A DNA stretch of 64,000 nucleotides from a virus, in IMG/VR virus record IMGVR_UViG_3300036780_000119, positions 36,467-100,466 of that record. One strand, 5' to 3'. Every line of letters starts with the position of its first letter. Position 1 is the stretch's first letter. The position numbers and the translations under genes are program-made. Below the pieces are notes generated by a model that ran no database searches, was not told where the DNA came from, and was given only the letters and a program-made list of their open reading frames with translations. Shown here one piece after another: positions 56,808-58,316 of the stretch.

Positions 56808-58316
56808 ATGCCAGGCAAGATCAGCTGGGCTGCGATCCGCGGCCAGGACACCCCCACCATCCCCCCCGGCGGCCACGTCACCGGTGGCACCCAAAGGGAC
56901 GCCGCCGCCGGGGGCACAGACGAGACCCGCAGCCACAAGATCACCGGTGACCATCTTGCCGGCGCTGCGGGCGGTGGCCGGGGCCAAGGAGGAAGCGCCA
57001 CCGCCACCGGCAGTGCCGCCCCGGCCGCCGCTGTCCCCGCCGGCCACACCCACCCCGCACACCCACGGGGGACGCACGCCGGCGGGGACGGCATGGCCGG
57101 CCAGCTGGGTGACCCGCTGCTGGCGTTCGCCGCCGACATCCTCGACGACCTCGAACGCACCAGGATCGCGAATGAGAACCGGCTGCGGCAGCTGACCCGC
57201 GCCACCGCCGACACCGACGGGGAGGTCCGCGGCTTCGGCCTGGACGCCTCCCACCCGGACGTGGCGCGGCTCGCCGCCCTCGTGGCGATGCTCGAAGACG
57301 CCGAGCATCAGGCCGAGCTGAACCTGACCGGGCGGATGCGCAGCCACCCGCTGTATGGGTGGGTGCGCCGGTCCAAGGGGGTCGGCGCGAAACAGGCCGC
57401 CCGGCTGCTCGCCACCCTCGGTGACCCCTACGTGCGGCCCGCGATCACCCGCGCAGACGGGGAGGCCGAGCCGGCCCGGCCCCGCAAGGTCAGCGAGCTG
57501 TGGGCGTTCGCCGGCTACCACGTCATCCAGGTTCCCGCCACCAGCCATATTGCCAGCAACAGCCAAAGTGATCCCGCTGGTGGCGGGGCAGGCACCCCCG
57601 CCAGCCATGATTCCGCCGCTGGCCAGGATTCCGCCGCTGGCGGGGGCCCCGGTCCGGTGCTGGTGGGGGTCGCGCCCCGCAGGCAGCGGGGGGTGCGGGC
57701 GAACTGGTCCCCGGCCGCGAAAATGCGCGCCCACCTCGTCGCCGCGTCCTGCATCAAGCAGCGCGGCGGTGGCCTGCGGGCCGTCTACGACCAGGCGCGG
57801 GACAAGTACGCCGGCGCGGTGCACGCCACCGGCTGTGTGCGCTGCGGCCCCCGCGGCAGCCCCGCCCAGCCCGGCTCGCCGCTGTCGGATGGGCACAAGC
57901 ACGCCCGCGGGCTGCGCGCCGTCGCCAAGCAGGTGCTGCTGGAACTGTGGCGCGAGGCCCGCGCCATCCACGAAGACACCGGCCTGGCCAGCGGCCACAC
58001 TGCCGCCGGCACCCATGCGACGATCGCTGCCGGCCAGGCCGGCTCTCCCGCCCCCGGTGGCCATGTCCTCGACGGTGGCCATGTCGAAGCCGCCGCCGGG
58101 GGCGGGGATCAGGCCACCGCCAGCAGCCAAGAAGATCCCGGCACCCAAGGTTGCGGCGCTGCTGGCGGTGCCCAGGCCACGGCCGGCGGCCAAACCTGTA
58201 CCGGCACCCAGCGGACCATCGCCGCCGGCCGTGACACGGCCGCCACCAGCAGCCCCGTAACGTCCGGCACCCATCACGGTCGCGCTGCTGGTGGCCCAGA
58301 CCCAGACGGAGAGTGA
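56808..58316 (+). CDS. Nop-domain RNA-binding protein, TIGR-Tas TasA-like (IS110/Nop superfamily, no nuclease domain)
   Basis: Coiled coil LDDLERTRIANENRLRQL; KGVGAKQAARLLATLGD; SELWAFAGY; RRQRGVRANWS; YDQARDKY; GHKHARGLRAVAKQVLLELW. No DEDD/RuvC or HNH motifs. Alternative start ATG 57093. Confidence 0.85.
   Translation: MPGKISWAAIRGQDTPTIPPGGHVTGGTQRDAAAGGTDETRSHKITGDHLAGAAGGGRGQGGSATATGSAAPAAAVPAGHTHPAHPRGTHAGGDGMAGQLGDPLLAFAADILDDLERTRIANENRLRQLTRATADTDGEVRGFGLDASHPDVARLAALVAMLEDAEHQAELNLTGRMRSHPLYGWVRRSKGVGAKQAARLLATLGDPYVRPAITRADGEAEPARPRKVSELWAFAGYHVIQVPATSHIASNSQSDPAGGGAGTPASHDSAAGQDSAAGGGPGPVLVGVAPRRQRGVRANWSPAAKMRAHLVAASCIKQRGGGLRAVYDQARDKYAGAVHATGCVRCGPRGSPAQPGSPLSDGHKHARGLRAVAKQVLLELWREARAIHEDTGLASGHTAAGTHATIAAGQAGSPAPGGHVLDGGHVEAAAGGGDQATASSQEDPGTQGCGAAGGAQATAGGQTCTGTQRTIAAGRDTAATSSPVTSGTHHGRAAGGPDPDGE
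56863..57091 (+). ncRNA. TIGR-like stem-loop guide units 1-4
   Basis: U1 56863-56914 (A CGTCACCGG, B AAGGGACGC); U2 56926-56971 (CAAGATCAC, TCTTGCCGG); U3 56971-57031 (AGGAGGAAG, CCGGCAGTGC); U4 57032-57091 (CACCCACCC, CGGGGGACGCA). Each closed by its own inverted repeat. Confidence 0.85.
57534..57646 (+). ncRNA. TIGR-like stem-loop guide units 5-6, inside the Nop domain coding region
   Basis: U5 57534-57587 (TATTGCCAG, AAGTGATCC; 11-bp perfect stem); U6 57595-57646 (TGATTCCGC, GGATTCCGC; 10-bp perfect stem). Confidence 0.85.
57979..58295 (+). ncRNA. TIGR-like stem-loop guide units 7-11
   Basis: U7 57979-58042 (CACTGCCGC, TGCGACGAT); U8 58047-58106 (TGTCCTCGA, TGTCGAAGC); U9 58115-58170 (AGAAGATCC, AGGTTGCGG); U10 58178-58233 (AACCTGTAC, GCGGACCAT); U11 58242-58295 (CGTAACGTC, TCACGGTCG). 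Loop CGGCACCCA in 4 of 5. Confidence 0.9.

What the first reader, a model, noticed from the sequence alone, without database searches (positions are those of the whole stretch)
56808..58316. RNA-guided TIGR-Tas-like system whose guide array is written inside the effector gene
Seen: 11 units of stem-CCA-spacerA(9)-YG-N4-CCA-spacerB(9)-YG-stem. The stems (7-16 bp) differ in sequence between units yet each is self-complementary, the boxes are constant (exceptions: CA in U5, CCC in U11) and the spacers are all different. Four units precede, two interrupt and five follow the Nop-like core, all within one stop-free ORF. Known: TIGR-Tas (Faure et al., Science 2025) uses Nop-domain proteins related to IS110 and box C/D snoRNPs with dual 9-nt spacers between box C/D-like motifs, includes stem-loop arrays, and TasA lacks a nuclease. 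Inference: one gene encodes both a programmable DNA-binding protein and its guides. I do not know this fully intragenic layout to have been characterised.
Basis: partly seen in the sequence, partly recalled or inferred. Interest (0 to 1): 0.95.

Follow-up and report, generated by a model that had tools for sequence, protein, structure and literature searches.

The report
Guide-RNA hairpins inside phage tasA gene
A soil phage's gene for a nuclease-free RNA-guided DNA-binding protein (TasA, TIGR-Tas family) carries eleven of its own hairpin guide-RNA units in frame inside its reading frame; this is real, but a September 2026 preprint already described the layout, so it is a new example of a known kind.

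Summary
ORF 56808-58316 (+, 502 aa) holds 11 hairpin units (7-16 bp variable stems; loop CCA-N9-YG-N4-CCA-N9-CG). Nine are regular; U3 and U4 have 33-nt loops. Expected by chance in this ORF: 0.01.

The protein is a Tas protein:
- NCBIfam TIGR_Tas_endo scores 206 bits against a cut-off of 100.
- The best fold matches are TasR 9MTY and TasH, then IS110 recombinases, then Nop5.
- It has no nuclease domain, so it is a TasA.

The folded core is aa 100-242 and 291-395. The array-coded parts (aa 1-94, 243-290, 401-502) are predicted disordered and show no codon-usage signature. The two internal units lie in the wedge loop.

The internal and C-terminal units must be translated. The four N-terminal units probably are (start at 56808), but a start at 57093 is possible.

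Across 49 related loci, none of 110 in-frame units uses the one codon phase that would give Arg-rich peptide. G:U pairs outnumber A:C 108 to 23, so the hairpins act as sense-strand RNA.

Xu et al. (bioRxiv 10.64898/2026.09.09.750476) already report in-frame intragenic stem-loop arrays (5', internal, 3') and sequenced tigRNAs from inside B. longum tasA. This scan found the same layout earlier in at least 9 other genomes. Expression, processing and targets remain untested here.

The parts
56808..58316 (+). tasA ORF, 502 aa. ATG at 56808 lies 4 nt after the stop of the upstream gene. The stop TGA at 58314-58316 overlaps the recT start.
   Evidence: NCBIfam NF052498 206.6 bits, aa 105-385; phrog_4285 E 4e-85
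56792..56796 (+). AGGAG Shine-Dalgarno-like motif, 11 nt before ATG 56808
   Evidence: sequence
57093..57095 (+). Alternative in-frame ATG (Met96), directly after the U4 stem. The public gene call (P0001, 407 aa) starts here.
57105..57533 (+). Core part 1 (aa 100-242): coiled-coil helices and the first part of the Nop C-terminal domain. pLDDT above 87, GC3 0.94.
57678..57992 (+). Core part 2 (aa 291-395): rest of the Nop C-terminal domain, including an insertion with conserved Cys/His. GC3 0.94.
56863..56914 (+). U1, regular unit, 10-11 bp stem
   Evidence: (47.7 bits)
56926..56971 (+). U2, regular unit, 7-8 bp stem
   Evidence: (37.3 bits)
56970..57032 (+). U3, irregular unit: 15 bp stem, 33-nt loop (linker 6, spacer B 10)
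   Evidence: (19.5 bits)
57030..57092 (+). U4, irregular unit: 15 bp stem, 33-nt loop. Its 3' arm ends 1 nt before ATG 57093.
   Evidence: (17.7 bits)
57533..57588 (+). U5, internal unit in the wedge loop; box D' is CA
   Evidence: (42.7 bits)
57595..57646 (+). U6, internal unit in the wedge loop; spacers A and B are identical at 8 of 9 positions
   Evidence: (45.8 bits)
57979..58042 (+). U7, regular core with a bulged 11+4 bp stem
   Evidence: (37.9 bits)
58046..58107 (+). U8, regular unit, 15-16 bp stem
   Evidence: (39.8 bits)
58115..58170 (+). U9, regular unit, 12-13 bp stem
   Evidence: (47.7 bits)
58178..58233 (+). U10, regular unit, 12-13 bp stem
   Evidence: (49.4 bits)
58242..58295 (+). 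U11, regular unit; first box is CCC
   Evidence: (38.2 bits)
58901..58973 (+). Probable twelfth unit inside the recT ORF, just after its RecT domain. 13-14 bp stem, CCA-N9-CG, a 19-nt linker with its own small hairpin, then CCA-N9-CG. Phase 2 in the recT frame.
   Evidence: 26.1 bits, E 0.005; z -4.65

Best explanation
This is a stem-loop-type TIGR-TasA locus of a roughly 100-kb tailed soil phage.

Shown from sequence and models:
- The gene encodes a nuclease-free Tas Nop-domain protein.
- Eleven tigRNA-type hairpin units lie on the sense strand inside its reading frame. Each has a variable stem that closes box C (CCA), spacer A, box D' (CG), a 4-nt linker, box C' (CCA), spacer B and box D (CG).
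- The array-coded peptide segments are Gly/Ala/Thr/Ser/Pro/His-rich and predicted disordered. They sit at the N-terminus, in the wedge loop and at the C-terminus.
- These segments carry no codon-usage signature, so the RNA element dictates the sequence and the peptide is a tolerated passenger.

Inferred from published work on relatives:
- The tasA transcript, or sub-transcripts of it, is cut at the hairpin bases into single-unit tigRNAs.
- A TasA dimer binds each unit.
- The two 9-nt spacers pair with opposite strands of an 18-bp DNA site.
- Lacking a nuclease, the complex blocks transcription or another DNA transaction.

Also inferred: a given transcript is either translated or matured into guides, so guide supply and TasA synthesis are coupled.
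For: Protein:
- NF052498 TIGR_Tas_endo, E 4e-61, 206.6 bits against a cut-off of 100.
- phmmer to TasR 9MTY, E 1.7e-6.
- Foldseek top ten are all TasR or TasH (E 2e-8 to 9e-5), then ISCro4 and IS621, then Nop5.
- No Pfam nuclease domain.
- The AF2 core has pLDDT above 87, and the disordered segments coincide with the arrays.
- The internal insertion falls between TaTasR residues 213 and 216. That is inside the wedge G210-K230 as defined by Xu et al., the same place as the two intragenic units of BlTasA.

RNA:
- Unit counts far exceed chance.
- A unit model built from 72 units of this and related loci finds 9 units at 37-49 bits, on the + strand only.
- The model finds 345 hits in 66 related loci, nearly all on the tas strand.
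- 8 of 9 stem pairs show changes on both sides. The rows were pre-selected for pairing.
- Internal G:U pairs outnumber A:C 108 to 23.

Translation:
- All 11 units share one codon phase.
- In 49 related loci, in-frame units use phase 0 (72) or phase 2 (38) and never phase 1 (0 of 110). Yet 65% of them would stay open in phase 1, where they would encode 32% Arg.
- Units outside the frame are spread 26/14/13.
- The annotated CDS of Gordonia phage BENtherdunthat gp059 contains 7 N-terminal and 2 wedge units.

Function of relatives: TasA acts as an RNA-guided repressor, and intragenic tigRNAs were sequenced from BlTasA.
Against: - There are no RNA data for this phage. The only run that holds the stretch is the source DNA metagenome.
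- No target was found. There is no match with fewer than 2 mismatches in the phage's own 100-kb contig, and the two exact 18-mer hits in IMG/VR are at the rate expected by chance.
- U3 and U4 are irregular and may be decaying.
- The start codon is not settled: the public gene call starts at 57093, after U4.
- Array segments have flat GC by codon position (0.69-0.82, against GC3 0.94 in the core), so nothing in their composition shows that they are translated.
- In Mycobacterium phage BPBiebs31 an in-frame stop separates the upstream units from the gene, so upstream arrays need not be coding.
Confidence: 0.85

Rival explanations
1. Partly intragenic variant. Translation starts at ATG 57093, so U1-U4 form a 5' leader array and only U5-U11 are translated. 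If U4 is cut at its base, the mRNA would begin at or next to the start codon.
For: - The public gene call is 407 aa and starts at Met96.
- The folded core begins at about aa 100.
- The N-terminal array has no codon signature.
- BPBiebs31 has a truly non-coding upstream array.
- Several frames are open there anyway.
Against: - ATG 56808 follows the upstream stop by 4 nt and has AGGAG 11 nt before it. A start at 57093 would be preceded by a 15-bp hairpin.
- All four units are in phase 0.
- Upstream in-frame units of relatives never use phase 1 (0 of 77), which is unexpected for untranslated RNA.
- BENtherdunthat gp059 is annotated from before its first unit.
Confidence: 0.3
2. The units are decayed relics of an array. 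They are still in the gene but are no longer processed or used as guides.
For: - U3 and U4 are irregular, and U5 and U11 have box variants.
- No targets were found.
- No RNA data exist.
Against: - Nine units score as high as the best units of relatives (37-49 bits).
- Stems are perfect over 10-16 bp.
- The protein core is intact, with all invariant residues of the family.
Confidence: 0.08
3. The repeats are selected at the protein level as a low-complexity Gly/Ala-rich repeat domain, and the hairpins are a by-product.
For: Each unit gives a similar peptide of about 20 aa with His or Gln at both box positions.
Against: - There is no GC3 signature, even in the internal array.
- It is the nucleotides CCA and CG that are conserved. 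Relatives read the same units in phase 0 or 2, which gives different peptides.
- The same units occur in non-coding DNA: the BPBiebs31 upstream gap and the tRNA island of this phage.
- The G:U bias shows RNA pairing.
Confidence: 0.02
4. The gene is an IS110-type transposase, as databases label its relatives, and the hairpins are its recombination or bridge-RNA elements.
For: - PHROG and RefSeq call relatives 'transposase'.
- IS110 recombinases are the next-best fold matches.
Against: - No RuvC-like DEDD domain: the N-terminus is disordered array-coded sequence.
- TasR and TasH match far better than IS621 or ISCro4 (E 2e-8 against 0.05-0.4).
- The curated Tas family model is passed.
- There is one copy in the genome.
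Confidence: 0.02

Closest known systems
Bifidobacterium longum TasA (BlTasA) and the intragenic stem-loop arrays catalogued by TIGRFinder (Xu et al., bioRxiv 10.64898/2026.09.09.750476)
   Same: - Nuclease-free TasA with stem-loop tigRNA units in frame inside the tas coding sequence.
- Two units overlap the wedge loop.
- Intragenic units map to disordered regions.
- Arrays are reported at the 5' end, inside and at the 3' end of tas genes.
   Different: - Here all 11 locus units are inside the ORF, including five at the C-terminus.
- The boxes are CCA/CG, whereas PateTasR in that paper has CUU/UG.
- The host is a high-GC actinobacterial phage.
- No RNA data exist here.
- I could not compare sequences with BlTasA because it was not available to the tools.
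Peromyscus leucopus gut TasA (PlTasA) with a stem-loop array (Faure et al. 2025, PMC12045711; Guan et al., bioRxiv 10.64898/2026.08.11.744272)
   Same: TasA dimer scaffold; single-hairpin tigRNAs with dual spacers of 8-12 nt flanked by box C/D-like motifs; variable palindromic stems.
   Different: The PlTasA arrays are described as sub-arrays beside the gene. Here they are inside the reading frame.
TaTasR (PDB 9MTY) and SpTasH (9W03, 9W04)
   Same: Best sequence and fold matches of the core. Same coiled-coil plus Nop C-terminal domain.
   Different: Those have RuvC or HNH nuclease domains and dual-repeat 36-nt tigRNAs. This protein has neither.
Actinophage 'transposase' genes: Gordonia phage BENtherdunthat gp059 and Mycobacterium phage BPBiebs31 gp74
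   Same: 44-49% identical cores and the same unit model. gp059 has 7 N-terminal and 2 wedge units inside its annotated CDS.
   Different: gp74 has its units in the upstream intergenic gap, behind an in-frame stop, and has no wedge insertion. Neither has a C-terminal array.

Membership tests
TIGR-Tas (Tas protein) | Nop-domain protein: coiled-coil dimerisation helices plus an RNA-binding C-terminal domain | tested here: met
   NF052498 scores 206.6 bits against a cut-off of 100. Foldseek top hits are 9MTY TasR and TasH, probability 1.00. phmmer to 9MTY gives E 1.7e-6. Helices 103-130 and 150-178 are present.
TIGR-Tas, stem-loop array type | Tandem units with two 8-12 nt variable spacers, each flanked by box C-like and box D-like motifs, closed by variable palindromic stems | tested here: met
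   11 units, 9 of them regular. The same model gives 345 hits in 66 related loci.
TIGR-Tas, TasA subtype | No RuvC or HNH nuclease domain | tested here: met
   No Pfam domain. Residues 1-94 are disordered array-coded sequence. The fold match covers only the Nop part of TasR and TasH.
TIGR-Tas | The array is transcribed and processed into unit-sized tigRNAs bound by Tas | not testable with these tools
   No RNA run holds the stretch. The G:U over A:C bias of 108 to 23 in relatives supports sense-strand RNA only indirectly.
TIGR-Tas | Spacer-directed binding of both DNA strands at an 18-bp target | not testable with these tools
   No self-target. IMG/VR 18-mer scans give 2 hits in 5 patterns, at chance level.
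Intragenic tigRNA layout (Xu et al. 2026) | Units in frame inside the tas CDS, in disordered regions, with the Nop fold preserved | tested here: met
   All 11 units are in phase 0 of the ORF. Disordered segments 1-94, 243-290 and 401-502 coincide with the arrays, and the core stays confident. The N-terminal four depend on the start codon.
IS110-family transposase | N-terminal RuvC-like DEDD catalytic domain | tested here: not met
   No such domain by Pfam or in the model. IS621 and ISCro4 are weaker fold matches over the Nop part only.
Box C/D snoRNP Nop5/Nop56/58 | Fibrillarin-binding N-terminal domain and canonical box C/D k-turn RNAs | tested here: not met
   Nop5 matches only about 145 columns at E 0.7-4. 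There is no N-terminal domain, and the boxes are reduced to CCA/CG.

The most novel reading that the evidence does not exclude
The in-frame placement may be a regulatory device and not merely tolerated. The strict phase rule (0 of 110 in-frame units in the Arg-coding phase), the hairpin that ends 1 nt before an alternative ATG, and a unit inside recT would together mean two things. First, TasA binding or cleavage of its own and its neighbour's mRNA sets the balance between protein synthesis and guide supply. For example, cutting at the U4 base could leave a leaderless mRNA for a short TasA. Second, guide production would be tied to expression of the recombination module.
Probability: 0.2. Interest if true: 0.6.

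Novelty: new member of a known kind. Interest (0 to 1): 0.35.

Why it matters
The case adds a clean, extreme example of dual coding in a programmable DNA-binding system. All 11 locus units lie inside the effector ORF, including a five-unit C-terminal array.

It links the system to cultured actinophages of Gordonia terrae and Mycobacterium smegmatis, whose genes are still labelled 'transposase'. Expression, processing, start-codon use and targets could be tested there directly.

The codon-phase rule and the absence of any codon-usage signature give a simple sequence-level criterion for how guide units are accommodated in reading frames.

It does not open a new class, because the layout is already reported.

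Tried and rejected
- RNA evidence: no RNA holder is listed for the stretch. Only the source soil DNA metagenome holds it.
- Self-targets: both possible half-site orders (rcA+B and A+rcB), with gaps of 0-2 and up to 3 mismatches, gave no more hits in the 100-kb contig than in the reversed-sequence control.
- Targets elsewhere: five exact 18-mer scans of IMG/VR (U10 in both orders; U5, U9 and U11 in one order) gave two single hits. One lies in a 62% GC contig inside a small ORF, the other in a 42% GC contig. This is the chance rate. No other guide matched the 520 kb of fetched loci with 2 mismatches or fewer, apart from one recT-guide hit with 2 mismatches. The published texts I read do not state which half-site order is correct.
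- 'Stop-free ORF' as evidence of coding was rejected, because other frames are open too.
- GC3 as evidence that the arrays are translated was uninformative: even the internal array, which must be translated, is flat.
- Promoter and terminator scans found nothing usable.
- ParB identity of the upstream gene was not confirmed. There is only a weak DGQHR hint, E 0.019.
- The MAFFT alignment of whole units (A2) misaligned U3. It was replaced by fixed-register windows (A3).

Full report
**The sequence**

The ORF runs from ATG 56808 to TGA 58314-58316 on the + strand and encodes 502 aa. The upstream gene stops at 56803, and AGGAG lies at 56792-56796. The stop overlaps the start of a RecT gene (58313-59341), which is followed by a PD-(D/E)XK exonuclease gene.

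The window is part of a 100,466-bp IMG/VR virus record from a soil metagenome. The record is 96% complete by CheckV and has one tas gene. It also has portal, large terminase, tape-measure and tail-fibre genes and 35 tRNA genes. GC content is 70%.

**The units**

- Nine units share an exact 32-nt core: CCA, 9 nt, YG, 4 nt, CCA, 9 nt, CG. The core is closed by a stem of 7-16 bp whose sequence differs from unit to unit.
- The first C and the last G of the core pair with each other.
- U3 and U4 depart from the formula, with 33-nt loops.

Motif plus stem occurs 9-10 times in the ORF, against 0.0135 expected for random sequence of the ORF's composition. Every unit folds into its outer stem, with z from -2.9 to -6.2.

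A covariance model was built from 72 regular units of this and 18 related loci. It scores nine units at 37-49 bits on the + strand and at most 17 bits on the - strand. U3 and U4 score 19.5 and 17.7 bits.

**The protein**

- Pfam finds nothing.
- NCBIfam NF052498 'TIGR-Tas system RNA-guided endonuclease' matches aa 105-385 over its whole length, at 206.6 bits against a cut-off of 100.
- phmmer finds the TasR chain of PDB 9MTY at E 1.7e-6. The 9MTY entry is the TasR RNP of Faure et al..
- An AlphaFold2 model built with 60 homologues has a confident core at aa 100-242 and 291-395. Confidence is below 50 at aa 1-94, 243-290 and 401-502, which are exactly the array-coded parts.
- Foldseek against the PDB ranks TasR and TasH first (E 2e-8 to 9e-5), then the IS110-family recombinases ISCro4 and IS621, then Nop5.
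- There is no RuvC or HNH domain, so this is a TasA.
- The internal insertion falls between TaTasR residues 213 and 216. That is in the wedge loop, G210-K230 in Xu et al..

**Are the units really translated?**

Openness of the frame says little, because other frames are open across the arrays as well.

- U5 and U6 interrupt the core in frame, so they must be translated.
- U7-U11 lie before the first in-frame stop, so they must be translated too.
- For U1-U4 the start codon decides. ATG 56808 has the better context. The public gene call uses ATG 57093.

All 11 units have the CA of the first box at codon positions 1-2.

In 49 related loci from genomes and IMG/VR, units that lie in the stop-free frame of the tas core use phase 0 (72 units) or phase 2 (38 units), and never phase 1 (0 of 110). 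This holds for upstream units as well (40, 37 and 0). Units outside that frame are spread 26, 14 and 13.

Phase 1 would remain stop-free in 65% of these units, so its absence is not a trivial result of stop codons. It would encode 32% Arg and 19% Pro. Phase 0 gives Gly/Ala/His/Asp-rich peptide, and phase 2 gives Pro/Ala/Thr/Ser-rich peptide. Units of one array are not independent of each other, but the pattern holds across many loci. I take it as evidence that in-frame arrays, including N-terminal ones, are read by ribosomes.

The array segments nonetheless have no codon-usage signature. GC by codon position is 0.75/0.73/0.82, 0.77/0.73/0.69 and 0.78/0.74/0.72, against 0.78/0.49/0.94 in the core. 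The RNA element therefore sets the sequence, and the peptide is a passenger.

**RNA and strand**

In 294 units of related loci, internal G:U pairs outnumber A:C by 108 to 23. Nearly all of the 345 model hits lie on the tas strand. Eight of nine stem positions change on both sides while staying paired. That alignment was pre-selected for stems of 8 bp or more, so only the diversity is informative, not the percentage paired.

**What is already known**

- Faure et al. 2025 (PMC12045711) described stem-loop TIGR arrays with TasA.
- Xu et al. [quoted passage not shown]
- Xu et al. also report that B. longum TasA yields tigRNAs from inside its coding sequence, that its wedge loop overlaps two tigRNA-coding regions, and that TasA represses transcription in an RNA-guided manner.
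- Guan et al. solved a stem-loop TasA complex bound to both DNA strands.

Notes of this scan report the same layout in at least 9 other genomes. I did not test those notes.

**Relatives in cultured phages**

The core is 44-49% identical to genes of Gordonia and Mycobacterium phages that are annotated 'transposase' or hypothetical.

- BENtherdunthat gp059 holds 7 N-terminal and 2 wedge units inside its annotated CDS, and two more units lie inside gp057.
- BPBiebs31 gp74 has its units in the upstream gap, behind an in-frame stop, and has no wedge insertion.

Both layouts therefore exist within one family.

**Beyond the gene**

- A probable twelfth unit lies inside recT at 58901-58973. It sits just after the conserved RecT domain and is in phase 2 of the recT frame.
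- Further units lie between tRNA genes about 84 kb upstream in the contig, including five in tandem at contig positions 10470-10790. This agrees with earlier notes of this scan.

**Mechanism, and what remains open**

The most likely mechanism is the one shown for relatives. The units are cut out of the sense transcript. TasA dimers bind them. The two spacers pair with opposite strands of an 18-bp site, and the complex blocks transcription. A competition between translation and guide maturation on the same transcript is my inference.

Nothing here shows expression. I found no targets.

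Noticed in passing
window 58901-58973 (+), inside recT (58313-59341): A probable tigRNA unit embedded in a non-tas gene. It has a 13-14 bp stem, both CCA-N9-CG halves, and a 19-nt linker that forms its own small hairpin. It lies just after the RecT domain, in phase 2 of the recT frame. The two RecT homologues found in related loci align only up to aa 189 and have no unit there.
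   Followed up: partly
L020 (contig 1-20000): 9423-9463, 9869-9916, about 10470-10790, 12506-12560: Further units on the + strand between tRNA genes, about 84 kb from tasA, including five in tandem between tRNA-Gln and tRNA-Thr. Some have variant boxes (CTA, TCA) and 5-nt linkers. The contig has only one tas gene.
   Followed up: partly
window 24863-24907 (-): A single motif-plus-stem candidate on the minus strand, with an 8-bp stem, a 15-nt linker and an 11-nt spacer B. It may be chance: 0.2 such hits are expected per contig.
   Followed up: no
window 57822-57902 (aa 339-365 of TasA): A segment of about 20 aa that is absent from TaTasR, at its 'insertion 2' position. It carries family-invariant H339, C343, C346 and H363 plus nearly invariant H365, which looks like a small zinc knuckle.
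   Followed up: no
window 57606-57636 (U6); 56874-56964 (U1, U2): Spacers A and B of U6 are identical at 8 of 9 positions, so its predicted target is a near-perfect 16-18 bp palindrome. U1 and U2 both contain the palindrome CACCGGTG across spacer A and box D'.
   Followed up: no
window 54534-55397 (+): An upstream gene (phrog_5931) with an LLDGQHRL motif and only a weak DGQHR-domain hit (E 0.019). The ParB-like identity proposed in another note of this scan was not confirmed by Pfam, NCBIfam or PDB sequence searches.
   Followed up: partly
L022 (Gordonia phage BENtherdunthat) 2487-2594 and 3521-4795; L023 (Mycobacterium phage BPBiebs31) 3620-3868: Cultured actinophages carry the same TasA and unit system under the label 'transposase'. 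Two units lie inside the CDS of BENtherdunthat gp057, a hypothetical protein. The NCBIfam name 'endonuclease' is also misleading for these nuclease-free proteins.
   Followed up: partly
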